Below, one piece after another: positions 11,001-36,987 of a DNA stretch of 64,000 nt. The notes below the pieces were generated by a model. That model ran no database searches. It was not told the origin of the DNA and worked only from the letters and a program-made list of their open reading frames with translations. Where the stretch lies: positions 1 to 64,000 of IMG/VR virus record IMGVR_UViG_3300011008_000041, one strand, 5' to 3'. The number at the start of each line of letters is the position of its first letter. Positions within the stretch are counted from its first letter, which is position 1. A program made the position numbers and the translations under genes. This DNA comes from a virus. Taxonomy: Duplodnaviria; Caudoviricetes.

Positions 11001-13043
11001 TTAAAAGAGGATTTTCATAATTCGTTCTGTGGCTCCTTTGACCTTAACCACCAGCGTATTCCGCTTGGTGGAGCTGAAGCCAAGTCCGGAGAGCTGGTCG
11101 GGCACGGTCTGAACAGCCATCTTGCCGCCGAGCGCCTCGAATACCCGCTTGTGTTCAGCAAGCTCCTGTTTCAGAAACTCGTTATAAAAGCCGTTGGGCT
11201 GTTCGGGGTTGACGCAGTCTTTGAGCATGAAGAAGTAGTGGCGATGGCCGATGCCTGTCTGAGCGTCCCAGTAATTGGGGGAATACATTGCTACAGTCAC
11301 GGGGACAAAGTTGTTGGTTTTCACGCCCCACAGATCAACCGATGCTGTATCGGCGGGAAGTTTGGTAACGATAGTGAACGTTCCATCCGGTTTCAGCTGG
11401 ACAGCGGCAACATCGACGTTTTCGCCCTGGCGGAGTTCTTTGCGGTAGTCGAACCGGAAGATTTGTCCATCGAATTCGATTTCTGCCCGAAAACCATCAC
11501 GCCCACCGCGATTGGCATACTGGTGTACGAAGAAGTTGTAAACACCGGGATACATGCGGCGCTTATCGGGCCAGGTGATGTTTTCTACCGCAGGAACTCC
11601 ATCAATTGGGTGGGTAATGTCCACGTCGAGGTTGCCTCCGTCAGAAACCCGCTTATGACCGAAGAAGATATGCTCATCCATCGGCGTTATACAATGCGCA
11701 TCGAGGTCGTTCCGGCTGTATTCGCCTGTATCATTCCACTGAATGGAAAAGCGCAGAACGCCATCCACCCGGCCACCGGCCGATTTGACATTTTCCTTCA
11801 CGTCGCTATCGGTGATGTTTCCGGAATAGGCCCAGGAAAACGAGTTGTTCCACTTGAACATGCTAGGCGCGTCGGCGTTCACCGGGGCGATAAGGGACAC
11901 CATGTTGGGAGCATGGCGGTTCTCCACATACACCTCCATTTCGGTCACGCAAGGGAGCACATCGGCAATGAACTTATTCACCGGGATTTCCTCGGCGCGG
12001 TCGAACCGCTTAGGTGTGGTTTTCGCCTCAGAGAGCATTTCGTCGAACACGGAGCCGCCAATTCTCTTGGAAGCGTCGCGATTGGAAAACAGGATGTTGT
12101 TCACGGTGATATCATCCAGGGTTGCGAAGCGCCGAGGCAGAGAATCCATATAGCCCAGATCGGTGATTTTCTGCTTAGCCTCCTCCAGCATCCTCGCGGT
12201 AAAGATAGCTTTAGGCCGCTTGTAGTTTGCCGGGGCAACGATCTTCTCGTAGCGTGTCACCGCGGCATTCAGATCCATACCCGAGGACACATCCGTCAGC
12301 AGGACGCCGATAGAATGATTGCGGATGCGCCCGATCACAGAACCAACATTGGGCGCCTCTTTCCACGCAAAGAGCGATTTCTTCTCTTCGGACAGCATGT
12401 CATAGACCTCTTTGCGGGATTTGAACGCCGCAAGAGGCTTTTTCCACTCCTCGCCCTTGTAGAGCGTATTGGATACGATCAGTTCCAGGATGGTGTCGAG
12501 GGCGACCATGCTGATTTCGTCCAGCGAGCGCTTGAATACGTTGCGAGTGTCCCGGCGCTGGCCACGCGCGGTATCGATAGTGTCTCGCGTAGTGTTCGTG
12601 AGATAGCCCGGAAGAAGCAGGTGGAAATGATCCCATGCCCTAATCTTTCCGTTGTCGTTCTCGTGAGAAACGTCAGTGCCTATATAGCGTTCTCTTGCGA
12701 TGTAGTAGCCCGTGATGTTGCATCCAGTCACATAGGCCGCAAGCGCATCCATGACAGGCTGGTAGGTGGTGCTCCCGGTGTCGAATTCAAAGATGCTGTG
12801 CATCGTCAGATCGTCATCGATGTACACAACGCCGCCAATTTCCTTGATGAAGTGGCGGCAGCAGGAACAGTCGTGTTCCCGGCGCTCCCGGAAGATTTCG
12901 TTTGTACCGGCAGGGAAACTGTCAAGGTACAGGTTCCAAAGGGCATCTTTATCGACATCCGTTTCAAACAACAGTCGTTCGGGATCCTCGACGGACCGTT
13001 TGAAATTTGCCAAGAGCTTGAGTTTCATTTCTTTGAAGCTCAT
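11001..13043 (-). CDS. 680-aa conserved phage protein with HDCSCC motif and YfaP/DUF2135-like domain
   Basis: HDCSCCRHFI; VLRFSIQW..NDLDAHC..GNLDVDI..AVENITW. Confidence 0.8.
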   Translation of the reverse strand: MSFKEMKLKLLANFKRSVEDPERLLFETDVDKDALWNLYLDSFPAGTNEIFRERREHDCSCCRHFIKEIGGVVYIDDDLTMHSIFEFDTGSTTYQPVMDALAAYVTGCNITGYYIARERYIGTDVSHENDNGKIRAWDHFHLLLPGYLTNTTRDTIDTARGQRRDTRNVFKRSLDEISMVALDTILELIVSNTLYKGEEWKKPLAAFKSRKEVYDMLSEEKKSLFAWKEAPNVGSVIGRIRNHSIGVLLTDVSSGMDLNAAVTRYEKIVAPANYKRPKAIFTARMLEEAKQKITDLGYMDSLPRRFATLDDITVNNILFSNRDASKRIGGSVFDEMLSEAKTTPKRFDRAEEIPVNKFIADVLPCVTEMEVYVENRHAPNMVSLIAPVNADAPSMFKWNNSFSWAYSGNITDSDVKENVKSAGGRVDGVLRFSIQWNDTGEYSRNDLDAHCITPMDEHIFFGHKRVSDGGNLDVDITHPIDGVPAVENITWPDKRRMYPGVYNFFVHQYANRGGRDGFRAEIEFDGQIFRFDYRKELRQGENVDVAAVQLKPDGTFTIVTKLPADTASVDLWGVKTNNFVPVTVAMYSPNYWDAQTGIGHRHYFFMLKDCVNPEQPNGFYNEFLKQELAEHKRVFEALGGKMAVQTVPDQLSGLGFSSTKRNTLVVKVKGATERIMKILF

Positions 13044-13064: not shown

Positions 13065-13634
13065 TTAATCATAGGTTTCGCGGGCTTCCATCTGCTTTAC
13101 ACCGCCCTCCCAGCAATCGCGGCAGTATACACCGGCGAAGTACCGGCCCGCGATCTCGGCGGTGCTGATGATCTTCCCGCATTTTGAGCAGGGGATATAA
13201 CCCTCGCAAAACTGCTTGGTTTGCTCCTCGATCCACTCGATGAAGTCGTCAGTTGGCGGTTGGCTCATGCTACGGATCGTAAACTCACCGATATGTCGGT
13301 CGAAGTCATCCCACAAGGAAAACAGGCCAGCATCTAGCCGTATTCCTTTGTGCGTGTTGTGGTAAACGGAGAACTTGAACCGCTTGTTTTCTCGGATAAG
13401 GTAGAACTCGTGGTTGCCAAGGTTCATTTGCATGAGCTCGTTCCGCAGGGCGTGAACCTTGTCCAGCATTTCAACGCCCTCATCCCATGTCACCCCGCAG
13501 CGCTGCATTTCCCGAAACACATTCCTGGGATAGATCTGTTTCGTTACGGTGTTGAACCAGGGGTAAACAGGCAAGCCGACAAAGAGTTCCTGCCAGATAC
13601 TCTCGATCAGATTGGCTTGTTTAGTCCGCTCCAT
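13065..13634 (-). CDS. hypothetical protein with C-terminal Zn finger
   Basis: CSKC..CRDC; RBS before MERTK. Confidence 0.65.
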   Translation of the reverse strand: MERTKQANLIESIWQELFVGLPVYPWFNTVTKQIYPRNVFREMQRCGVTWDEGVEMLDKVHALRNELMQMNLGNHEFYLIRENKRFKFSVYHNTHKGIRLDAGLFSLWDDFDRHIGEFTIRSMSQPPTDDFIEWIEEQTKQFCEGYIPCSKCGKIISTAEIAGRYFAGVYCRDCWEGGVKQMEARETYD

Positions 13635-14193
13635 ACTTCGCCTCCATCTTCTCGATGAATGCATCGACCTGAGCGGTGACCCAGTCCTGGACGGTCTCAT
13701 AGCCCTCGGCCTCGATGTACCTCTGTAACCGCAGGAACTTGTCATCCGGGAGTCGCCCCGCAACACGGGCTGTATACCTATGTCTGCCGCTCCGGTGCTT
13801 TTTCGTCGGCGTGGAAGCGGTCTCATGAGGCGGCGCGGGTTCATCTTCAATGCGGGTCACTCCCGATCCTCCGCAGGGCGGGAGGGGTGGCGCCGGCTCT
13901 TCGGCTGGCACGTTGGCAATGTTGTCCCGAAGAATGGCAAAACCGCCAGGATGAAGTACACAGCCGTACAGGTTCGGCCGGGTGCATTTCGATACGACGG
14001 TTTTATCCAACTTCGGATAGTGTGATCGCAGAAGCCTCGTCGCGTCCTTGGGCGTCAGAGAAGCCGCGTTGATCGCGCCTCTCAGGTCATACCGTTTGAC
14101 AGCGGCATCGAACTCTGCTAAGATGTCTGTGGGTTTACTAGCCTTGGGGTCGTTGTGTGCCAGCACAGCGGCCTCGTTTTCTTTTGTGATCAT
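13621..14193 (-). CDS. hypothetical (possible DNA-binding) protein
   Basis: Coupled ORF; C-terminal RHH-like segment. Confidence 0.6.
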   Translation of the reverse strand: MITKENEAAVLAHNDPKASKPTDILAEFDAAVKRYDLRGAINAASLTPKDATRLLRSHYPKLDKTVVSKCTRPNLYGCVLHPGGFAILRDNIANVPAEEPAPPLPPCGGSGVTRIEDEPAPPHETASTPTKKHRSGRHRYTARVAGRLPDDKFLRLQRYIEAEGYETVQDWVTAQVDAFIEKMEAKYGAD

Positions 14194-14639
14194 GCGATAT
14201 TCTCCTGACTGATGTTGTCCATAGCCTCGAACACCGCGGCCAGCTCCGAGAGCGCCCGGTATTTCGCCTTGAATGCCTCAAGCTCTTCCAGCGCGTTCGT
14301 CAGAAGTGCCTTGCGCAGTTCCTCGTTGCTCATGGCCGCATAAAGGGTCGTGTAGCCCTTTTCCGCATGAACGAACTGTCGGACCGGCGTATCGTCCGCG
14401 GCCTCCTGGACAGTAATGTTTCGGATGATGTACTGTGCCTGCACAGTGCGAAATCGCTCCGCAGCGACACGATCATCCCACTCGAACAGAGCGTGAAGCG
14501 GAGCGTCCTCCGCACGGCTGGCATCAACCACCGCCTGCGGTGTCAGTGTCCCGTCCTTGCTCTGGTCCCTGATGCGGTTCAGCTCGGCGACCGCCGTTTG
14601 AACCGGTACCTTCATCGGGATCTTCCATTGATAGGTCAT
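14190..14639 (-). CDS. conserved protein immediately downstream of the GGY-NN array (putative accessory factor)
   Basis: Strong RBS (agaaaggagg); LTPQAVVDASRAEDAPLHALFEWDDRVAAERFRTVQAQYIIRNI motif. Confidence 0.8.
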   Translation of the reverse strand: MTYQWKIPMKVPVQTAVAELNRIRDQSKDGTLTPQAVVDASRAEDAPLHALFEWDDRVAAERFRTVQAQYIIRNITVQEAADDTPVRQFVHAEKGYTTLYAAMSNEELRKALLTNALEELEAFKAKYRALSELAAVFEAMDNISQENIA

Positions 14640-14678
14640 TGGGGTTTCCTCCTTTCTTTCAGATTTGCTCTTCACGGC

Positions 14679-15819
14679 GCGCCTAAACTAGCCGTGCCTC
14701 GGCGACCCAAACCACGCCTGCCCATCCGCTCCGGACCGCACCACAACGCATCATTCCAAACCACGCCTGCCAAACCGAACCCTTCCGATCCCATCCGCAC
14801 CGGACCTAACCTTGCCTGCCATACCACGTCCACCCTCGGCTCTACCGACCTCGCCATCCATGCCTGCCAGCCTTGCCATTCCGTACCGCGCCGAACCTTG
14901 CGTCAACGCGCCATGCCGAGCCGCGCCTGCCATAACGTTCCCTTCCGGGCCCAACTCTGCCTTGACAAGCCATGCCAGCCAGTCCACACCTGAGCATGCC
15001 GTTTCCCACCGGAACTGACCTCGCCTTGCCCGCCATGCCTCACAGATCCAAAGCGAACACTACCGAAGCCAACCATGCCCGCCGCGCGTAGCCACCTCGT
15101 ACCGTAACTAGCCTCAGCAAACCGGGCCTGCCATGCCCAGCCATGTCCCGCCTTGACGTTCCGAACCTGAACGGACCATGACTGCCAAACCGCCCGTGCC
15201 GTACCGGGCGCAGCCTACCCGGACCATGCCAGCCGTACCGTACCAAAGCCCACCACAACAAGCCGTGCCATGTCACACCGGAACTGCCTTGCCTGGACGT
15301 GCCTGACCTCGCGTCGACTTTCCACGCCTAGCCTAGCCTGGCAAACCGTACCGAAGCTCATCCAACCGGAACCAACCGAGCCCCGCCTAAACCCGCCTGT
15401 CATATATGTACCGAGCCCAGCCCCGCAAAGCCGTTCCACAACTGGCCCTTCCTTGCCTGCCGCACCGAGCCTTTCCAGACCGTGCCTAGCCCCAGCGAAG
15501 CATGCCCCGCCTGCCGCACCGAGCCGAACCTTGCCAAACCCCGCAAGACCCAGCCTAAACAGAGCGAACCGTGCCTTGCCTGCCTTGCCGGACCTAGCCG
15601 GGACAAACCGGGACTTGACACACCTAGCCTGCCGGGCCATTCCACGCTCTGCCACGACGCACCGCTCAGGACCACGCCATTACGTGACTTGCCTTGCCTG
15701 CCAGTCCATGCCATAACGAGACGCGCCAAGCCCCGCCATCCTTACCCTGACCGCCGTACCGAACCAATCCAGAACGGGCCCAGCCAAACCGGAACATGAC
15801 TTACCCAGCCGTGCCTGTC
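14679..15819 (-). ncRNA. array of about 21 putative guide RNAs built from GGY-NN pentamers (VIPR-like)
   Basis: Strict 5-nt periodicity (plus strand NN+RCC-like triplet), broken every 8-13 pentamers by a 4-nt unit (tgcc/agcc/cgcc; GGCAGGC on minus). Starts 7 nt after the RAMP stop; no credible ORF. Confidence 0.85.
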
Positions 15820-15825
15820 GCGGAA

Positions 15826-16494
15826 TTACTCGATATGAAACATTCCTGACTGCCCGGATTTCTCGACACGCCACTCACCGATGCCGCAGACCATCCCGGC
15901 AGCGTTGATCATGTTCACGATATTCTCCAGGGAATACTGGCCGTTCTTGTTGTATTTCAGGATCACGTCTGTGCTCCAATTGCGGAACTCGCCGCGGTAA
16001 CGGAGATCGGCGGTGCCAAGGCCGACTTTGACCATATCCTCGCGCATGATCGGGGGGTCGCTAATGATCTCCAGCATGTCGAGGCCGCTATCCCCGAGTT
16101 GGCCGACGCCGTACAGGAAGAACGCACCCTGCAGGGAGACCTTGTCCTTCGACCACCCCATACGATAGGCGGCGCTTATCGCAGCCTTTTTGAGTCCGAC
16201 CACAGGGAAACCAAACCGGGCACCCTTGGCGATGGCCTCCTCAAACGCCTCCTCGGTCATTTCCGTGGGCTTCTCGGTGAGCCAGTACATGGAGTTGATG
16301 AAATCCTCGACGGGGTTCTTTACGGGCTTCTTCTTGCCCTTCGCGAGGCCCATCTGCGCCTCCAGCATCTGCCGCTTGGCCTTCTCGCTCCAGCAGTGGA
16401 CGATCAGGGGCGTGTCACCGACGATATGAAGGGTGACCTGGGCCATGTCCAGAGGGCGAACTTCAACGATCTCATCATTCTTCTTGGTTGCCAT
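15826..16494 (-). CDS. stand-alone Cas7/RAMP-like protein (Vipr-like), 222 aa
   Basis: RBS+ATG at 16494; VTLHIVGDTPLIVH strand, FGFPVVGLKKAAISAA helix (cf. IPGSSLKG), C-terminal Gly loop GMVCGIGEWRVEKSGQSGMF. No other cas genes in the window. Confidence 0.8.
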   Translation of the reverse strand: MATKKNDEIVEVRPLDMAQVTLHIVGDTPLIVHCWSEKAKRQMLEAQMGLAKGKKKPVKNPVEDFINSMYWLTEKPTEMTEEAFEEAIAKGARFGFPVVGLKKAAISAAYRMGWSKDKVSLQGAFFLYGVGQLGDSGLDMLEIISDPPIMREDMVKVGLGTADLRYRGEFRNWSTDVILKYNKNGQYSLENIVNMINAAGMVCGIGEWRVEKSGQSGMFHIE

Positions 16495-16523
16495 TTGCAA
16501 TTTCCTTTCTGCCGTGCTATAAT
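16495..16523 (+). promoter_or_regulatory. sigma70-type promoter TTGCAA-17-TATAAT with extended -10, antisense to the early operon
   Basis: ttgcaa 16495-16500, tgc+tataat 16515-16523. Confidence 0.6.
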
Positions 16524-16552
16524 GACGGCGCAACAAAATATTTTTGGTGTTT

Positions 16553-16591
16553 GCCGCTTCGGATGTTCCAGCATCCGGGGCGGCGCTTTTT
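16553..16591 (+). terminator. GC hairpin plus T-run
   Basis: gccgcttcggatg-ttccag-catccggggcggc-gcttttt. Confidence 0.55.
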
Positions 16592-16835
16592 ATTCCTGTT
16601 CTGGAACAGAAATCTCGATCTCGCCATCCATGGCATTCAGCTTGTCGATTGTGATCCCTGCGGCTTCAAGTTCCTTGCCTTTCCTCTCGTACATCCGCAG
16701 GGTGTACATCTGCTGTCGGCGTCGGTACCGAATTCGCTCTTCCTTTTTGGCGAGCTTCACATGCGGCGACGCTTGGAGGCGTCTGATTTCCTCCTCGACC
16801 TCGGCATCCGTCATGCACCGCTTACCTTCTGCCAC
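16590..16835 (-). CDS. hypothetical protein
   Basis: Short ORF with RBS. Confidence 0.65.
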   Translation of the reverse strand: MAEGKRCMTDAEVEEEIRRLQASPHVKLAKKEERIRYRRRQQMYTLRMYERKGKELEAAGITIDKLNAMDGEIEISVPEQE

Positions 16836-16989
16836 TTTTCTTCACCTCCTTCTCAGCGATTCGGACGCAGATACCCGCGACGGCTATGGAGCCAATCGCC
16901 CAGAGCGGACGGGTTTCGATCAAGGCCGGGCCGACAATAAAGATCATCAACGCTGCCGTGCTGTAGAAAATGTTCTGTGCCTTGTTCAT
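16822..16989 (-). CDS. small membrane protein (55 aa; not in ORF track)
   Basis: MNKAQNIFYSTAALMIFIVGPALIETRPLWAIGSIAVAGICVRIAEKEVKKSGRR; RBS aggggtga. Confidence 0.55.
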   Translation of the reverse strand: MNKAQNIFYSTAALMIFIVGPALIETRPLWAIGSIAVAGICVRIAEKEVKKSGRR

Positions 16990-17141
16990 ATTGGTTCACC
17001 CCTTTCGTCATGCGTTTTGGCCCATTCCTCATATTCCCGTTTTAGCTCTGGATCGCTCAGCGCCAGTCGAACACTGTCATTCAGCGCTCGGCATGAAGCC
17101 TCCCATACGCTTTCAGGAATTAGTTTTGGATCGATGCCCAT
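16986..17141 (-). CDS. hypothetical protein (51 aa)
   Basis: RBS agaaagga before MGIDPKLIP. Confidence 0.6.
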   Translation of the reverse strand: MGIDPKLIPESVWEASCRALNDSVRLALSDPELKREYEEWAKTHDERGEPI

Positions 17142-17162
17142 AAATGGATCCTTTCTTCTGCC

Positions 17163-17462
17163 TATCCGCTCCACGGTGCCAACACAGGGTTGTCGTACTT
17201 GGAACCCCACAAGACAGACATTCAGACAGACAGTGTAATCGTGTGTTCGTGTTGGCACTATGGAACGGATAAGTAGTTTGGCGTACTTGGTCGTTCGATC
17301 TATCCGCTCCACGGCACCGCCATCCTCCGATAAGGTCAGAAAGGAGATATGTCACAATGGCAGCAGTCATCCGCATGAAGGGGTAGCGCAGCGCGCTCGC
17401 TCTTGGCCATCAAGCGGCTCGATGGAGCAAGAGTAAAGAATGGCGGCACGGTGGAACGGATA
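17163..17462 (-). ncRNA. two tandem structured RNA units closed by homologous 23-bp stems
   Basis: TATCCGTTCCA..TGCC...GG(C/T)(A/G)CCGTGGAGCGGATA brackets at 17301-17462 and 17163-17271, with compensatory changes. Confidence 0.55.
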
Positions 17463-17479
17463 ATCCTTAGTGGCTCATT

Positions 17480-17707
17480 TTAGGCGCATTTATGCGACTT
17501 TTGAGACAAAAAAATAGCGATTGCTTCATCCGTGGTCAGATCCAGAACTTCGCACATCTTATGTATGTCCCTTATCTGTAGGCGACCGGAATTCAGGCGT
17601 CTCCTTAAAGTTGCGCGATCAATGCCCAATTCTTCTGCCAAGACCTCTTGAGTGATTCCACATTCAACGATTTTTGCCTGCAATTTCTTTATATCGATTT
17701 GATACAT
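17480..17707 (-). CDS. Cro-like HTH regulator
   Basis: ITQEVLAEELGIDRATLRRRL HTH; divergent from the repressor. Confidence 0.85.
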   Translation of the reverse strand: MYQIDIKKLQAKIVECGITQEVLAEELGIDRATLRRRLNSGRLQIRDIHKMCEVLDLTTDEAIAIFLSQKSHKCA

Positions 17708-30561: not shown

Positions 30562-33500
30562 TTAGGGGATATAAAGGAGTCGGGAGCCGAGGAACGCGCT
30601 GGTGTACGAGGCCGCGTAGTAGGCGCTGAAGAAGAAGAAGCCAAAGTTATCGTCGCTGAGATAGACGCCGCCAACGTTCAGCGCTTGGTCGCCGGTCTTC
30701 GAGTTGACGTAGTCTGGGACATACGTACTCGCAGAGCCTCCCGACGCTGCATCAGGAATGAAGGCGTACGGGCACTCTTCGCTGTAACCAAAGCCAGTAA
30801 TATACTGTGAAGACGGGAGTGTAATACCCGTCTCAACGAGTGCACTCTTGTTATCGGCAAACGAGGCATTGTCCAGACTGGTGTATACCGCTCTGCTGGA
30901 TGCCATAAAGCCATCCACCCAGTCACGCACGTTACTGAACGGATCCTCGACCCATCGGTACTGGTTATGTGCGCCATTGAGTTTCAGCGTGTGATACGCC
31001 GCGCCGGTCGTGCCGCCGCAGTTGCTGATCGAACCCGTATTCCAGCCCGTTCCAAGAGTATTCTGGCTATGGAAGTTGGCAAACTCGACCAAGTAGAGCA
31101 TCTGCAGAGCCGACCACGAGGCAATGTCCAGCATGTACCAATTCGTACCCTTGTTATGGGAGTAGGTGCGGAAGTTGGTACGGGTGGTGTTCACCAACAG
31201 TGCCGCACCGGATTTGGAATAGACCGCCGAGGAATCACCGGAAGTATGGAAGCGGCCAATATACCGCCCGGAGCCGGGATGCTTCACAAAGCCGGTCTTT
31301 GCAGTCGGCGAGATTGCCCACATCCACTTGCTGTTTGCGGTGTCCTTATAGGCGGTGTAGTAGAACTCCGGGATGTAGACCACGGTATCGTAGTCCGTTT
31401 CCGAGAAGCCTGCGTCATCTTCGGAATAGGAGATTGCACCGTCGATGACGTTGTACCGCTTCATGCCGCTCCACGGCAGGATGTTGTCAAACGGAGAGGA
31501 GCCGGATCCAGCAAGGGACGTGGCCGGCGAAGGATCGGAGAACGAGGCCGCAAGGCCGAGCCTTGTGAGGGCGGGGCTGGAATTGGCGTAGTTCCATTCG
31601 ACGCCGTATGCGCCGTCTGCGCTGGTGGCGGTGGGAACCTCCACATTGCTTGCCGCCTTGAACTGCGCGTAGCAGGATGTATTGGCGGTGATGTTGGTGT
31701 TGCTGGGGTTCCAACCGATGAACGTGCCACCGTTGGGGTCAACAGGGGTCTCTCCGGTATAGTTTGCGGTGCCTCCCGAAGTGACGCCCGTAACGGTCTG
31801 CAAAAGGGTCGTGCCATTGTAGAAATAGACCGTGTACGTCACGATGTACGACGCTGTGTAGGTGGCGTTGCCAGTAACTGTGGTGACTGTCGGTGTCCAC
31901 CCCTGGAACGAACCGCCGCCCGACACCGGATTCTGAGGCGTGGAGCCGTTATAGGTGGGCGTCGCACCATACGGGACGTTGGTATCGGTCTCAAGCGTGG
32001 TGCCGTCGCTGTTCTTCCAAGTAATCGTGTACGTCCGCACCGTCCAGGAATAGGCCGCGTAAACGGTACGATCCTCCAGGACGTTGGTCGTGCACCCGCT
32101 TTCCGCTGTCTGCTGGTCCTGCTGAGTGTTCCAGCCAACAAACGAATAAGAGTACTGCGCAGTCGAACTTCTGGTGGGGGCGGTCGGCGCGCTCTCCTGC
32201 GGGACGCCATCAATGCAGGTGACAGTCTTCAGCGTCGAGCTGCCGTCATAGGTCTTGTAGGTCAGGTAACTTGTGGTGTGATCAGCCGTCACGGACAGAT
32301 AGGGATAAGCCTCAAGTCTGGTGTTGATCGCGGCGAGTTCGGCTCCTGTGAGGGAGCTGGTATGAATGGTGCCGGACACCTGGGCCGTGTCCATGTTGTT
32401 GCCATATTCATCCAAGCCGCGCATTACATCGAGCTTGTCGAGCAGGGCGTTGATCTCCGTAGCACCCGCCGCTTCCCACGCAAGCCCAATCAGACGCACA
32501 CGGGAAGCCGCAGGGATCGCGTTCAGGATTGCCTTGCTGTTAACCGCCGAGCTGACGTTCTCCAGCCACAAAGTAGAGATATTGGAGTAAGACGGGATGG
32601 TAAAATCCGCAATCGCCGTCTGATTGCGGATGGTCAGGTTGGTGATCGTAGAAGGAAGATGCAGCACTTTCAGAATGCCGCCGTTCGGAAGATCAATACC
32701 GGTGATGACCGTGCCGTCGAAGTACACGTTCTCGATGTTGGCGCAACCCGAGATATCCACCGACTTCATATCGCCAGTGCCAAGGCCGGCGCAGTTACGC
32801 ACATCCAGCGTGCGGAGCAGGGTGTTATTGCCAAGGTACAGCTCTTTGAGGTTGCCGTTGGAGTAGGATCCGGAACTATCGCCGAGCTTGATGCTCTGCA
32901 ACTTTGTGGCCATGCTGAAATCAGCAAAGCCGACTTTCAAACCAGAGAGGTCACCCACGGCCGCAAGCTGAGACGCAGAGTAGATGTAGATTTCGGTATC
33001 GTTCACGTTATCCAGCGGGCAGATAAGCGTGTATGCCTGATTGCGCGTGGCGCGGGTCTGCACGAGGTAAGAGCCGTACTTCACCGAGGCGTACACGTCA
33101 GCATACGGGGTAACGGTGATGTTCGACTTCGCGTAGCCGCGGAGCTGGATCACGTCGCTCTGTGCGTCGCCGGCGTTGTACTTCGAGTCGATGTAGCGGA
33201 AGCGGTTGTAGAGCCACCATTTGCGCTGTTCGGCCTTCGAGCCCTGCAGCATGGCGAGATACGCGCCGGAGCCGTCCTCGACCAAAGGTGCAAGGTATTT
33301 GAACCAGGCGTCTTCATTGAAGACTGCCTCGCCCCATTTCTCCTGGTGTTCCTCAAACGCGGTCTCGACCCTCGCATACGACAGCGCCCCGCTCGAGCGA
33401 AGCGTCTGATACATAGCCTTGATCTCGTCATAGAAGGCCTGACGCATGTTGATCCAGAGGACAGACTGCTGACCATTGAAGACATCTGCGCCGCCCGTGA

Positions 33501-36500
33501 TGGTGTCGATATCCTCCAGGTTGTAGGAGAAAACGAGAGCGCCCTCGTTGTTGATACCAAGGGCGGTATCGAAGTCGTAGGGGAGCCAGCACCATTTATC
33601 GCCGCTGAGCTGGGACGGGAAAGCGTTCTTTGCGCGGCTGTCGACCATCAGGAAGAGCTCGGTGAACAGGTAGTAGAAAATCGTACTGTCCATCTCCATA
33701 TGATCTGCGGCCTCGGCCTTAAACTTCGCCAGCCGGTACGCCGCTGTATCATTGGTGTAGGTAACGGCATCATCGCCGGTTCCGTAGGTAACAGCGCTCG
33801 GCAAGGCGTTGCCGGTCGCCGCGCTCTGATCGGTGGATTTCAGCCACGTTGCTAGTGCAGAGAGCTTTGTTGCGTCGGTATAGGCCGGGTCGGTATCAGG
33901 GTAGCGAGCCTCGAAGTCATTGAGCCATCCATCCCCCGTGTAATCATCACTCTTCCAGAGTACGCGATCGCTGGTGTTGTTCTTGATCTCCCACGACTCG
34001 TCGCCGGAAATAAATCCGAACACTTCTTCGGTGCCCTTATCATTATTGAAGTTGTATTTGCCGAGGAACGTTGTGGTTTCGCCGTTGCTCCAGAAGATGA
34101 CGCACGGGAAGCCGTCGATGCCTTGCCTGACGGCACTGTTCTGCTCCTGTGGCGGCGTCTTGTACGGACAGGCGTCGTTGTAGAGGATCGCCAGCTCGAC
34201 GTTGTTAGCGCCCTCAGAGCTTGCCACGTCAGCTTTCATACAAAAAGCGTTGGTAGCAATAGCGCCCGGGCGCAGGGAGTATGCGCTTGCCAGAGTGCCG
34301 CTGTTCAGCAGGAAGCCGCCCTTGAATTTCAACTTATAGTTCTTCCGGGCGTAGTACTGCGAGGACGTACCTTGGACATCAGCCTGGACATTCGTGGCCG
34401 TGAAGCTCTTGGAGGGAGTGACCGGGTCAACATAGGTAACAGCTACCGTCCGTTTATCGCCCTTGTACTGCGGGAGCTCGTCGCACTCGATTATCATGTA
34501 AGGAAGATCGCTGGGAAGCTGTGCGATCACCACATTCCCATAGGCATCGTAGATGCTGTTGCGGTTATACCGCGCAATCATGTCATCCACGTTCTGGCTG
34601 TCGGCAATCCAGTTTTCAAGCACCTGATAGCGAGTCAGGTCGTTGTCATAGATGCGAATGCGGTACACGTCGATGGTGCAGTCATTGGAGCCGATGGAAA
34701 TGCCGACCGGGGTGGTCTGTGCGAAGTCATCCGAGGCCGGATACTGAACCACGCCGCTCATGATGCCGTTCACATAGATATACAGCAGGCGGTTTTCGCT
34801 GCGCTTCTCAGCCACGAAAGCCAGCCGGACGTGCTCGTTCTCCTTATACTGCATGCTGATCTCCGACTGCTCGGAGGTCAGCGTCGCTTTCTGTGCCGTC
34901 ATGGACAGGCCACGACCACCGGAGAGACAGGACAGGATCACGGCATCGTAATTCATGACGTCCCGCGTGGCAAATTCGACCTCGATGGTCTTGCCGGTTC
35001 CGCGGAAGTCGGAGCCGAAGATCTGATAGGGAATCGTGACGCGGGCGTCGCCCGCCACACGCAGGACGGTAACGCCGTCCTCGTCAAGCAGCCAGCCGTC
35101 CGAGGAGAAGTTGAAGCCCGTCATGGTGGCAGCAATGTTGTTGTCGCCGTCCGTCCATGTGCCGGGATTTGCCTCGTTGTTACTGCGTCCCACACTGGAC
35201 AGATGAAGCACAAGGTTCTGGGTTTCAGCTTCTACGTTGATATCGCTCTCGGTGATCGTTACCGTGATGGTCTTCCGCGCGGTTCCGGATGCAATAACAA
35301 CCGTCAGGCTCCCCGCCGTGTCTGCGCGATATGCGAACACCTGTTCCGTGCGGTCTACCGTCTGCTGGGAGACCTGAGAACCGTTCACAGAGATCGTTGC
35401 AACCGCCGTCAAGGACGTTGGATCATACACGGTATATCCGATGTTCAGCGTACTGTACTGGATTGCTGTGCTCTTGTTGAACGAGGATACGATGATCGGA
35501 GTATTGTTCAGCGCTTCAAGGCAGATGATCTCGTAATACAGGTGGTTGGACTCAACCGACTCACCGTTGATTACGCAGTCGAAATAGCACTCAAGGGTGT
35601 GCGCTCCGTGGGACTGCTGCGGGATCGTGTAGGTCATCTGTCTGCCGGATACCGAGGTTGACGCGGTTCCGATCTCCCTGCCGTCCAGCAGGAAGCGCAC
35701 TGTCTTCTGCACCTCGCCAACCGGCGTGTACGGGAAGCTGATCGCGCCCTGATACGGCGTGGAGGCGTCAAAGGTCGAGCTGATCGAAACAGCGACCACC
35801 GTAACGGAGAAGTTGATGGTCCGGCTGTTGTCGTATACGTCGCTGATTGTGACCTTGATCACGTTGGCGCCGGAGGAACAGTATGCAGCAAGGTCGATGT
35901 TGACCGTGCCCTGCTGGATGTTCAGCATGGCCTTGACCGCGCCGTTTACGGTGATCTTCGCCGTTCCGTCACCCGTGGGCATACCGTCCTCCTCGGAGGA
36001 CCAGACAACCGTGATGGGAGCTGTGCCATCCTCGGCAATGGTCTTCGAGAGCCAGCCGGTGTTGTTGGTGACGCTGAGGGACGCGGTATTCCCGGATGAC
36101 CCGCCGCCACCACCGCCAGAGCCCGAGAAGGGGCCAAGAGGACCGGCCACGACTTCGCCATTCGACGTCAGATAGAGGTAACCGTTATCGACATAGGCAT
36201 CATCGACCTTGCCCTCGATCACCAGCTGCATAGCCGCGTCGCTGCGCCGAAGGGCGGCAACAGCGTTATTCAGTTCGGCAACCTCGTTCTCCGCGTTGTT
36301 TGCCGCGGACAACGCCTGTGCTGCCTTGGTATTTGCGTCAGTCGTGATGTTGGCGATTGCCTGCGCCTTCTCATCGATCTGCTCAATGGCATCGTCAATC
36401 TTCTGATCGAGAGACGTTTCTTTTCTCTCGATATAGACAATGGCGGCATTCTTTGCCGCTACAGCATCGTCCGCAGAGCCCTCCGCGTTTGATGCAGCTG

Positions 36501-36987
36501 TCTCCGCACGGGTAGTCAGCGCCGCGATATCCGCGACCGCGTCCTCTGCCTGCTGACCAGCGGCAATGATTTCGGCGGAATTATCCAGCACGTTCACGAG
36601 CTCGCGGATGACGGACTCCGACGCGAGGGTATCCTTATCCAGCGCGGCGCGTTCGATATGCAGGACGAAATTGGCGGTGTTCAGCTCCTTCCCGTTGTTG
36701 AACAGGGTGAGTTCAAAAACGCCGTGCCCCGCAGCCGCCGTCATCTGCTGATCACCGGTAACGGTGACTATGGCGTTGGCCACATCCACCGTGGCATTGA
36801 CGGAATACCCGTTGCCATCCGGCTTTGTGCCTCGGATTTGAGCCGTGGTTCCACTCTGGATTGTGAAATTCCCCTGACGGGAAACCAAATGAATACGGAG
36901 GCTGAAATCACTGTCGTACTGATTCAGCCTCCGCTCCACTTTCGCCCCGCCCGGAACCATGTCCAGGTCAAATGCGTGAATGATCAT
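30562..36987 (-). CDS. 2141-aa tail fibre/receptor-binding protein, DGR target
   Basis: BppU-like N-terminus, CotH-kinase-like middle, LRR-like segment, InlB-B-like repeats, C-terminal C-type-lectin-like domain carrying VR. Confidence 0.9.
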   Translation of the reverse strand: MIIHAFDLDMVPGGAKVERRLNQYDSDFSLRIHLVSRQGNFTIQSGTTAQIRGTKPDGNGYSVNATVDVANAIVTVTGDQQMTAAAGHGVFELTLFNNGKELNTANFVLHIERAALDKDTLASESVIRELVNVLDNSAEIIAAGQQAEDAVADIAALTTRAETAASNAEGSADDAVAAKNAAIVYIERKETSLDQKIDDAIEQIDEKAQAIANITTDANTKAAQALSAANNAENEVAELNNAVAALRRSDAAMQLVIEGKVDDAYVDNGYLYLTSNGEVVAGPLGPFSGSGGGGGGSSGNTASLSVTNNTGWLSKTIAEDGTAPITVVWSSEEDGMPTGDGTAKITVNGAVKAMLNIQQGTVNIDLAAYCSSGANVIKVTISDVYDNSRTINFSVTVVAVSISSTFDASTPYQGAISFPYTPVGEVQKTVRFLLDGREIGTASTSVSGRQMTYTIPQQSHGAHTLECYFDCVINGESVESNHLYYEIICLEALNNTPIIVSSFNKSTAIQYSTLNIGYTVYDPTSLTAVATISVNGSQVSQQTVDRTEQVFAYRADTAGSLTVVIASGTARKTITVTITESDINVEAETQNLVLHLSSVGRSNNEANPGTWTDGDNNIAATMTGFNFSSDGWLLDEDGVTVLRVAGDARVTIPYQIFGSDFRGTGKTIEVEFATRDVMNYDAVILSCLSGGRGLSMTAQKATLTSEQSEISMQYKENEHVRLAFVAEKRSENRLLYIYVNGIMSGVVQYPASDDFAQTTPVGISIGSNDCTIDVYRIRIYDNDLTRYQVLENWIADSQNVDDMIARYNRNSIYDAYGNVVIAQLPSDLPYMIIECDELPQYKGDKRTVAVTYVDPVTPSKSFTATNVQADVQGTSSQYYARKNYKLKFKGGFLLNSGTLASAYSLRPGAIATNAFCMKADVASSEGANNVELAILYNDACPYKTPPQEQNSAVRQGIDGFPCVIFWSNGETTTFLGKYNFNNDKGTEEVFGFISGDESWEIKNNTSDRVLWKSDDYTGDGWLNDFEARYPDTDPAYTDATKLSALATWLKSTDQSAATGNALPSAVTYGTGDDAVTYTNDTAAYRLAKFKAEAADHMEMDSTIFYYLFTELFLMVDSRAKNAFPSQLSGDKWCWLPYDFDTALGINNEGALVFSYNLEDIDTITGGADVFNGQQSVLWINMRQAFYDEIKAMYQTLRSSGALSYARVETAFEEHQEKWGEAVFNEDAWFKYLAPLVEDGSGAYLAMLQGSKAEQRKWWLYNRFRYIDSKYNAGDAQSDVIQLRGYAKSNITVTPYADVYASVKYGSYLVQTRATRNQAYTLICPLDNVNDTEIYIYSASQLAAVGDLSGLKVGFADFSMATKLQSIKLGDSSGSYSNGNLKELYLGNNTLLRTLDVRNCAGLGTGDMKSVDISGCANIENVYFDGTVITGIDLPNGGILKVLHLPSTITNLTIRNQTAIADFTIPSYSNISTLWLENVSSAVNSKAILNAIPAASRVRLIGLAWEAAGATEINALLDKLDVMRGLDEYGNNMDTAQVSGTIHTSSLTGAELAAINTRLEAYPYLSVTADHTTSYLTYKTYDGSSTLKTVTCIDGVPQESAPTAPTRSSTAQYSYSFVGWNTQQDQQTAESGCTTNVLEDRTVYAAYSWTVRTYTITWKNSDGTTLETDTNVPYGATPTYNGSTPQNPVSGGGSFQGWTPTVTTVTGNATYTASYIVTYTVYFYNGTTLLQTVTGVTSGGTANYTGETPVDPNGGTFIGWNPSNTNITANTSCYAQFKAASNVEVPTATSADGAYGVEWNYANSSPALTRLGLAASFSDPSPATSLAGSGSSPFDNILPWSGMKRYNVIDGAISYSEDDAGFSETDYDTVVYIPEFYYTAYKDTANSKWMWAISPTAKTGFVKHPGSGRYIGRFHTSGDSSAVYSKSGAALLVNTTRTNFRTYSHNKGTNWYMLDIASWSALQMLYLVEFANFHSQNTLGTGWNTGSISNCGGTTGAAYHTLKLNGAHNQYRWVEDPFSNVRDWVDGFMASSRAVYTSLDNASFADNKSALVETGITLPSSQYITGFGYSEECPYAFIPDAASGGSASTYVPDYVNSKTGDQALNVGGVYLSDDNFGFFFFSAYYAASYTSAFLGSRLLYIP
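30574..30710 (-). repeat. DGR variable repeat (VR) at the 3' end of the tail fibre gene
   Basis: VNSKTGDQALNVGGVYLSDDNFGFFFFSAYYAASYTSAFLGSRLL vs TR VNSNTGDQALNVGGNYNSNDNYGFFYFNANNAASNTNANLGSRHL. Confidence 0.95.

What the first reader, a model, noticed from the sequence alone, without database searches (positions are those of the whole stretch)
14873..14927. Guide spelling the phage family-A DNA polymerase motif A (xIVADFSAIEA)
NN string TT AT GT GC GA TT TC GC AT GA GC reads F/L-I/M-V-A-D/E-F/L-S-A-I/M-D/E-A. Established: ADFSAIEAR is the catalytic motif A of the PolA clade common in Firmicutes temperate phages. This phage has no polA in the window (it uses a replisome organiser), so the target would be a competitor's essential gene, at a site where only wobble positions can drift, which are exactly the bases this code skips.
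Basis: partly seen in the sequence, partly recalled or inferred. Interest (0 to 1): 0.88.

Follow-up and report, generated by a model that had tools for sequence, protein, structure and literature searches.

The report
VIPR guide RNA against rival polymerase
This stretch is one guide RNA of a phage VIPR system, a CRISPR-related silencer first described in 2026 preprints; its variable letters match the first two bases of eleven codons at the catalytic motif of a DNA polymerase carried by many rival phages, so it is a clear new example of a known kind.

Summary
Window 14873-14927 is eleven NNxCC pentamers (GGY-NN on the transcribed minus strand). They lie in a 1.15-kb array of about 22 such units, between a 222-aa gene and a 150-aa gene of a complete 72-kb phage.

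The reading is supported. All 231 hits are in codon phase, and 225 of them spell FIVADFSAIEA of family-A polymerase motif A. A control with the codon order shuffled gave 0 hits. The phage has no polA of its own and no self-target.

The system is already published: VIPR (bioRxiv 10.64898/2026.04.26.720920, .720927 and 2026.10.15.759431). The 222-aa protein folds as a Cas7/Csm3-type RAMP and is homologous to SUSP1 Vipr. The array is the tail-less "staggered" form.

The claim that only wobble bases can drift is partly wrong. At least 93 contigs carry the same motif with serine coded AGY, which leaves 10/11 NN matched.

Guides in related arrays hit the same replication module on both DNA strands. 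This scan has already noted VIPR on other DNA (134 findings). Function here is inferred, not shown.

The parts
14873..14927 (-). The finding: one vrRNA guide of 11 GGY-NN pentamers. Its NN string, read as NNx on the + strand, equals codon positions 1-2 of FIVADFSAIEA (family-A polymerase motif A). The RNA would be complementary to the coding strand of polA.
   Evidence: sequence. (231 exact in-frame hits). (shuffled control, 0 hits). (DNA_pol_A; alignment to motif A of Pol I).
14928..14931 (-). 4-nt slip TGCC (GGCA in the RNA). It is a pentamer short by one base and separates this guide from the next unit.
   Evidence: The same TGCC delimiter occurs in related arrays. It fits the 'staggered arrays' with 1-nt overlap in fig. 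S18 of 10.64898/2026.04.26.720920.
14865..14872 (-). Two consecutive 4-nt slips (TGCC AGCC) on the other side of the guide.
14676..15825 (-). The whole vrRNA array: about 22 tail-less guide units of 8-13 pentamers each, lying between vipr and the accessory gene.
   Evidence: No Rfam family and no hammerhead ribozyme. The same architecture lies downstream of the homologous gene in 17 of 23 related viral loci.
15826..16494 (-). vipr gene: a 222-aa RAMP (Cas7/Csm3-like) protein with a conserved C-terminal GxGEWR...G..G.F loop.
   Evidence: Alignment A1. AF2 model with pLDDT 81. Foldseek: 38 PDB hits at E<=1e-3, and all those listed are CRISPR RAMP subunits, mostly Csm3/Cas7. VIA-align: Csm3 6ae2_B at Z 10.2. 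The profile hits SUSP1 vipr at E 2.5e-13, and hhalign gives 97.8%.
14190..14642 (-). Accessory (vap-like) gene, 150 aa, PHROG 15946. A predicted alpha/beta N-domain is followed by a C-terminal coiled-coil hairpin.
   Evidence: Conserved downstream of vipr and the array in 20 of 23 loci. AF2 model with pLDDT 90. Only weak winged-helix/forkhead-like matches, Z 5.3-5.8. Not similar to SUSP1 vap1.
15235..15284 (-). Second guide aimed at the same rival module: the N-terminus (xxNPTKVITG) of the Enc34-type ssDNA-binding protein (PF10991, DUF2815).
   Evidence: 17-19 of 20 bases match in polA loci, against 15-16 for shuffles. 8/10 NN in 3 of 12 complete polA phage genomes, against 0 for shuffles. Pfam on such a gene.
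15634..15698 (-). Guide matching GITLTAAGTMVFY (12/13 NN) in the Helicase_C domain of an SNF2 helicase of a 71-kb phage.
   Evidence: No match in 35 polA-carrying phage records.
15756..15815 (-). Guide nearest vipr. It matches VEKGGQNGMFHV at the C-terminal loop of rival vipr genes. The phage's own vipr matches at only 9/12 NN.

Best explanation
The stretch is one guide (vrRNA) of a phage-borne VIPR system.

Shown here:
- The array is built of GGY-NN pentamers in the same sense as the upstream gene.
- That gene encodes a RAMP-fold protein homologous to the characterised SUSP1 Vipr.
- The guide's 11 NN pairs equal codon positions 1-2 of the invariant motif A (FIVADFSAIEA) of a family-A polymerase. 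That polymerase is carried by several hundred phage and prophage sequences and is absent from this phage.

Inferred from the VIPR preprints, not shown here:
- The array is transcribed with vipr and cut into units at the 4-nt slips.
- Vipr protomers polymerise along each unit. They hold each GGY and expose each NN.
- The filament pairs with one strand of double-stranded target DNA and skips every third base, forming an R-loop triplex.
- The bound filament blocks transcription of polA, so a co-infecting or co-resident rival phage that depends on this polymerase cannot replicate.

Because the skipped base is the wobble base, this one guide fits 98 different underlying 33-mers.
For: - Sequence and periodicity.
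- Target: at least 111 viral and at least 120 genomic exact hits, all in frame, against 0 for the shuffled order. Target genes are DNA_pol_A and the motif aligns to Pol I motif A. Skipped bases are near-maximally variable, and the guide's third base does not track them.
- Self versus non-self: no polA in the complete genome. No self-match reaches 80% NN.
- Protein: RAMP fold and homology to SUSP1 Vipr. The SUSP1 locus shows YNNGG arrays in vipr sense.
- Conservation: the same gene-array-gene layout occurs in related viral contigs, with different NN content and some shared units.
- Family-wide test: 81 guides gave 433 hits at >=85% NN, against 3 for shuffled guides. The hits fall on both strands with the skip at the wobble base, and converge on PolA, the Enc34-type SSB, DUF2800/PD-(D/E)XK, DUF7768 and a D5 primase.
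- Mechanism from the literature: 10.64898/2026.04.26.720920.720927 and 10.64898/2026.10.15.759431.
Against: - Nothing here shows expression, processing, RNP formation or DNA binding.
- Two of the eleven pentamers lack the canonical GG (GTTGA and CGCAA in RNA sense).
- This array has no 3' tail like the characterised type II vrRNAs. The preprint does not report experimental confirmation of the staggered architecture.
- The accessory gene is unrelated to vap1, and its fold is unresolved.
- At least 93 contigs carry the motif with Ser as AGY, so part of the target population is mismatched at one NN pair. The effect of one central NN mismatch on this system is unknown.
- The host of this phage was not identified, so it is not shown that it ever meets polA-carrying phages.
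Confidence: 0.85

Rival explanations
1. The guide acts on mRNA rather than on double-stranded DNA. In this view a Csm3-like backbone holds an antisense RNA that blocks or destroys polA transcripts.
For: The best structural matches are Csm3/Cmr4, the RNA-targeting type III backbone subunits. All four decoded guides of this window are antisense to the target mRNA.
Against: Across the family, 11 of 18 decoded guides match the strand opposite to the gene and still skip the wobble base. Those guides could not pair with mRNA. The characterised VIPRs bind double-stranded DNA and silence from either strand. Four of four on one strand is weak evidence, p about 0.06 one-sided.
Confidence: 0.06
2. The match is an inherited relic. 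The unit once targeted polA phages but is now a decaying or unexpressed part of a long array, with no present function.
For: Two pentamers of this unit, and several neighbouring units (14821-14860, 15183-15234), are degenerate. None of the 17 related arrays carries this particular guide. No listed sequencing run is on record as RNA, which is uninformative either way.
Against: All 22 informative bases are intact, whereas drift would hit them first. The guide starts and stops exactly where codon positions 1-2 stop being invariant in the targets: a variable codon at -1 and Arg split CG/AG at +1. The preprint calls internal degeneracy of GGY frequent in working vrRNAs.
Confidence: 0.07
3. The match is chance, or a by-product of composition. 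The C-rich repeat is a DNA-level element (origin, packaging or protein-binding array), and the peptide reading is pareidolia.
For: A reader scanning about 230 pentamers against remembered motifs makes many implicit comparisons.
Against: The shuffled control gave 0 hits against at least 111. Independent units hit other genes of the same module and rival vipr genes. Guides from related arrays gave 433 hits against 3 for shuffles. The adjacent protein is a RAMP homologous to Vipr.
Confidence: 0.01

Closest known systems
VIPR systems (Vipr protein + vrRNA + vap); characterised type II of Escherichia phage SUSP1 and a Pseudomonas fulva prophage. bioRxiv 10.64898/2026.04.26.720920, 10.64898/2026.04.26.720927, 10.64898/2026.10.15.759431
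   Same: - A small RAMP protein homologous to SUSP1 Vipr.
- Guides of 9-16 GGY-NN pentamers in vipr sense.
- NNx (1-nt skip) matches with the skip at the codon wobble base.
- Targets in rival mobile elements on both strands, and no self-target at 80% NN.
- Some guides aimed at rival vipr genes near their 3' end, with a lower self-match.
- A phage location.
   Different: - The gene order here is vipr - array - accessory gene, not vrRNA - vipr - vap1 - vrRNAs.
- There are about 22 guides rather than 4.
- There is no roughly 40-nt pseudoknot tail; units are separated only by a 4-nt slip.
- The accessory protein is unrelated to vap1.
- The target class is the replication module of PolA phages of Bacillota and Actinomycetota, not satellites or lysis-lysogeny regulators.
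'Staggered' VIPR arrays with vrRNAs overlapping by 1 nt (fig. S18 of 10.64898/2026.04.26.720920)
   Same: Guides abut with a one-base shift of the pentamer register, and there is no ribozyme between them.
   Different: Only the figure legend could be read. The preprint names no VIPR type or sequence for it that I could compare, and it does not report experimental confirmation of this architecture.
Cas7-family backbone subunits of class 1 CRISPR effectors (Csm3, Cmr4, Cas7 of types I, IV, VII; gRAMP)
   Same: The fold matches: RRM core, glycine-rich loop and thumb-like insertion. Csm3 6ae2_B gives Z 10.2 with 140 residues at 3.1 A. A filament along a guide RNA with periodic interruption of pairing is inferred.
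   Different: - No CRISPR repeats or other cas genes were seen among the genes examined.
- The period is 5 nt on the guide and 3 nt on the target, instead of 6 and 6.
- Only 2 of 5 guide bases pair.
- Each period carries a sequence-specific GGY handle.
This scan's earlier VIPR reports on other genomes (e.g. e1-5709135, a gut phage whose guide spells a DNA polymerase motif; e1-5345848; e1-5847458)
   Same: The same kind of system and the same decoding logic; 134 findings in at least 116 genomes.
   Different: They come from different genomes, scaffolds and targets. I did not re-test them.

Membership tests
VIPR system | Vipr protein: a small (~20 kDa) stand-alone RAMP with an RRM core, thumb and glycine-rich loop | tested here: met
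   222 aa. AF2 model with pLDDT 81. Foldseek and VIA-align top hits are all CRISPR RAMPs, led by Csm3 at Z 10.2. Invariant C-terminal G..G.GEWR...G..G loop. Homology to SUSP1 Vipr: E 2.5e-13, hhalign 97.8%.
VIPR system | vrRNA of tandem YNNGG (GGY/NN) pentamers, 9-16 per guide, in vipr sense | tested here: met
   11 pentamers at 14873-14927, 9 of them with canonical GG. The array has a 5-nt periodicity and units of 8-13 pentamers.
VIPR system | NN pairs match natural targets by the 1-nt skip rule (>=80% NN), with the skip at the wobble base and no self-target | tested here: met
   11/11 NN in at least 231 loci, all in frame. Shuffled control gave 0. The best match in the phage's own genome is 75%, and for this guide 45%.
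VIPR system | Minimal locus on a virus or provirus, without cas genes or CRISPR repeats | tested here: met
   The record is a complete virus genome with direct terminal repeats. Neighbouring genes are phage early, replication and integration genes. Only the neighbourhood was annotated, not all 72 kb.
VIPR system | Adjacent vap accessory gene with a DNA-interacting fold | tested here: inconclusive
   A 150-aa gene is conserved next to the array in 20 of 23 loci. Fold matches are weak (forkhead/winged-helix-like, Z 5.3-5.8) alongside a coiled coil.
VIPR system | vrRNA is expressed, binds Vipr, and the RNP binds and silences double-stranded DNA targets | not testable with these tools
   Needs small-RNA sequencing, pull-down, and binding and reporter assays.
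VIPR type II (SUSP1 / P. fulva clade) | Each vrRNA ends in a conserved structured 3' tail of about 40 nt (a pseudoknot in the SUSP1 clade) | tested here: not met
   Units are separated by only 3-4 nt in most cases. No structured family was found.
VIPR type II (SUSP1 / P. fulva clade) | vap1 accessory gene directly after vipr | tested here: not met
   The array, not a gene, follows vipr. The downstream protein shows no similarity to SUSP1 vap1 (hhalign probability 0.2%).

The most novel reading that the evidence does not exclude
The invariant motif-A serine of this polymerase clade is coded TCN in at least 231 sequences and AGY in at least 93. This split could be a trace of an arms race. A switch of serine codon family is almost the only synonymous change that alters an NN pair, so it would be the natural escape from a wobble-skipping guide. 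On this reading, tail-less staggered arrays such as this one, with about 22 guides and a non-vap1 partner, are a distinct VIPR subtype that keeps up with such escapes by carrying many guides against one replication module.
Probability: 0.15. Interest if true: 0.6.

Novelty: new member of a known kind. Interest (0 to 1): 0.4.

Why it matters
- It is a very clean natural example of the VIPR gapped code. One 55-nt guide fits 98 different target sequences because it reads only the protein-constrained bases of a catalytic motif.
- It extends the documented targets from satellites and lysis-lysogeny regulators to the replication module (PolA, Enc34-type SSB, DUF2800 nuclease, D5 primase, DUF7768) of phages of gut Bacillota and Actinomycetota.
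- It shows a limit of the code: six-fold degenerate serine offers a synonymous way out.
- The tail-less staggered array with about 22 guides and an uncharacterised accessory protein is a good candidate for working out how such arrays are processed.

Tried and rejected
- Tandem Repeats Finder saw only fragments of the array.
- BLASTN of the locus against GenBank phages found only a 65-nt match inside vipr homologues of Gordonia phages.
- Pfam gave nothing above threshold for Vipr or the accessory protein.
- Rfam gave no family and no hammerhead ribozyme in 13500-17500.
- Consensus promoter and terminator scans gave nothing useful on the minus strand.
- The preprint's supplementary tables are not held, so the VIPR type (I-VII) could not be assigned.
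- Guide 15516-15580 had no exact 11-codon match in viral contigs.
- Guide 15634-15698 does not hit 35 polA-carrying phage records at up to 3 mismatches.
- Most other guides of this window found no target in 12 complete polA phage genomes.
- I rejected the idea that the third base of each pentamer pairs with the wobble base: it equals the skipped base in 0-35% of targets.
- I rejected a coding reading, because units of 49, 54 or 59 nt shift the frame.
- The 4-nt slips next to the guide (TG, AG) match the -2 and -1 codons of only 53 and 29 of 231 targets, so I do not count them as guide positions.

Full report
**What is there.** The stretch belongs to a 1150-nt non-coding region, 14676-15825, that is 43% C on the + strand. 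In that region CC recurs at every multiple of 5 nt at about twice expectation and is depleted in between. A segmentation shows about 22 units of 8-13 pentamers. Most are separated by a 4-nt slip, usually TGCC, which is a pentamer short by one base. The flanking genes are both on the minus strand. On that strand the array reads GGY-NN.

**Is the peptide reading real?** Yes.
- I wrote the NN pairs with one free base after each and scanned public viral contigs. 
- All 231 matches are in codon phase. 225 spell FIVADFSAIEA and the other 6 differ only at F/L or I/M, followed by RV.
- The same eleven dinucleotides in a shuffled codon order gave no hit at all in the viral collection. In 1 Mb of local sequence, shuffled orders reached at most 18 of 22 bases.
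- The four target genes I scanned are Pfam DNA_pol_A. One of them was aligned to a solved Pol I, and there the motif aligns to AADYSQIELRV, the catalytic motif A.
- The genomes that carry the target are mostly Lachnospiraceae, Oscillospiraceae, Ruminococcus, Clostridium, Selenomonas and Bacillus relatives, with some Actinomyces, Gardnerella and kin.
- The 111 viral sites are 98 different 33-mers. The skipped bases vary almost as freely as synonymy allows, and the guide's own third base does not follow them.
- The guide begins after a variable codon. It ends just before an arginine whose first two bases are split CG 130 to AG 100. It therefore covers exactly the stretch in which codon positions 1-2 are fixed.

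**What system is it?**
- The upstream gene (15826-16494, 222 aa) has no Pfam family. Its AlphaFold model (pLDDT 81) matches only CRISPR RAMP subunits: Csm3, Cmr4, gRAMP, Cas7 of types I, IV and VII, then Cas6. The best match is Csm3 at Z 10.2.
- A literature search found the system already described as VIPR, Viral Interference Programmable Repeat. It consists of a stand-alone RAMP (Vipr), guide RNAs of 9-16 YNNGG repeats (vrRNAs) and an accessory gene (vap).
- In the preprints, the NN bases pair with double-stranded DNA while every third target base, usually the wobble base, is skipped. The complex silences transcription of rival phages and satellites.
- A structural companion preprint shows a Vipr filament that holds each GGY and presents each NN, forming an R-loop triplex.
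- A profile of the protein family found here hits the vipr gene of phage SUSP1 (E 2.5e-13; hhalign 97.8%). The SUSP1 locus shows the published YNNGG arrays in vipr sense.
- The finding is therefore a vrRNA.

**How this locus differs from the characterised one.**
- The array lies between vipr and the accessory gene.
- It holds about 22 guides rather than four.
- The guides have no structured 3' tail and no ribozyme between them. This fits the 'staggered arrays' with 1-nt overlap that the preprint shows only as a supplementary figure and does not report as experimentally confirmed.
- The 150-aa downstream gene is conserved in 20 of 23 related loci, but it is unrelated to SUSP1 vap1. Its fold gives only weak winged-helix-like matches plus a coiled coil.
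- I could not assign one of the seven published types, because the supplementary tables are not held.

**Context that supports a role in phage rivalry.**
- The record is a complete 72,096-bp virus genome with terminal repeats. It has no family-A polymerase. It replicates with a DnaD-like replisome organiser, a helicase loader, an SSB and Sak4.
- No guide matches the phage's own genome at the preprint's 80% NN threshold.
- A second guide (15235-15284) matches the N-terminus of the Enc34-type SSB that lies next to polA in the same rival phages.
- A third guide (15634-15698) matches an SNF2 helicase motif, but in a different 71-kb phage and not in the polA phages.
- The guide nearest vipr (15756-15815) matches the C-terminal loop of rival vipr genes. 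It is exact over the eleven codons specified in the search pattern on one related contig. The phage's own vipr differs at three codons, giving 75% NN. The October 2026 preprint reports the same pattern for SUSP1 relatives.
- In 17 related viral contigs the same gene is followed by the same kind of array with other NN contents.
- Together, 81 distinct guides gave 433 hits at 85% NN or better in 2 Mb of local sequence, against 3 for shuffled guides. The 18 guides with targets hit PolA, the Enc34-type SSB, DUF2800/PD-(D/E)XK, DUF7768 and a D5-type primase.
- Seven of those guides match the sense strand and eleven the antisense strand, with the skip at the wobble base in both cases. This fits DNA targeting and speaks against an mRNA-only mechanism, even though all four decoded guides of this window happen to be antisense to the mRNA.

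The site is not one where only wobble bases can change. The same peptide motif with serine coded AGY instead of TCN occurs in at least 93 further viral contigs. Those targets match the guide at 10 of 11 NN pairs. Whether that suffices for binding is unknown. The switch of serine codon family is a synonymous escape route that the wobble-skipping code does not cover.

**What is shown and what is inferred.**
- Shown: the repeat architecture, the RAMP fold and the homology to Vipr, the exact in-phase match to motif A with controls, the absence of self-targets, and the convergence of the family's guides on one replication module.
- Inferred from the preprints: transcription and processing of the array, filament assembly, DNA binding and silencing. 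No RNA data were available.

**Verdict.** This is a real and well-supported member of a system published in 2026, and this scan has met the system many times on other DNA. It is not a new kind of system. It is a useful example, with a new target class, a long tail-less array and an uncharacterised accessory protein.

Noticed in passing
window 15756-15815 and 15832-15867: The guide closest to vipr spells VEK?GQNGMFHV, the consensus C-terminal glycine loop of rival Vipr proteins. It is exact over the eleven codons specified in the search pattern on contig IMGVR_UViG_3300028914_001362. The phage's own vipr reads VEKSGQSGMFHI and matches at only 9/12 NN. This looks like anti-VIPR targeting with self-avoidance.
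   Followed up: partly
L303-L395 (viral contigs): At least 93 contigs carry FIVADFSAIEARV with Ser coded AGY instead of TCN. Among the 80 rows listed per scan, contigs of data set 3300045988, which also holds most related VIPR loci, make up 17 of the AGY rows against 7 of the TCN rows.
   Followed up: partly
L112-L132 arrays, e.g. L113:3205-3259, L117:2953-3203, L125:1497-1600: Related VIPR arrays share some guide units, for instance the fGyGkGfTy unit of window 15585-15629 recurs in L117 and L118. They also carry guides to the Enc34-type SSB (YANVWEPKSIN, on the antisense strand), DUF2800 nuclease, DUF7768 and D5 primase of the same PolA module.
   Followed up: partly
window 15183-15234 and 15398-15407: Two irregular spots in the array. 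One is a 52-nt stretch with several closely spaced slips and short, degenerate units. The other is a 10-nt insert, TGTCATATAT, between two units, the only AT-rich spot in the array.
   Followed up: no
GenBank phages: Full-length homologues of this Vipr (28-38% identity) are annotated as hypothetical proteins in Gordonia phages (UmaThurman gp39, ODay gp19) and in many Mycobacterium phages (Quico, Florinda, Brocalys and others). C-terminal matches occur in Felixounavirus and Suspvirus phages. In phage wV8 the gene is flanked by annotated 'DR_4' repeat regions.
   Followed up: no
window 11001-13043 (-): A 680-aa protein of PHROG 1735 (unknown function, E 1.9e-261) lies three genes downstream of the VIPR locus in the same early operon. 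It has no Pfam family.
   Followed up: no
window 30562-36987 (-): A very long open reading frame of 2141 aa, not examined.
   Followed up: no
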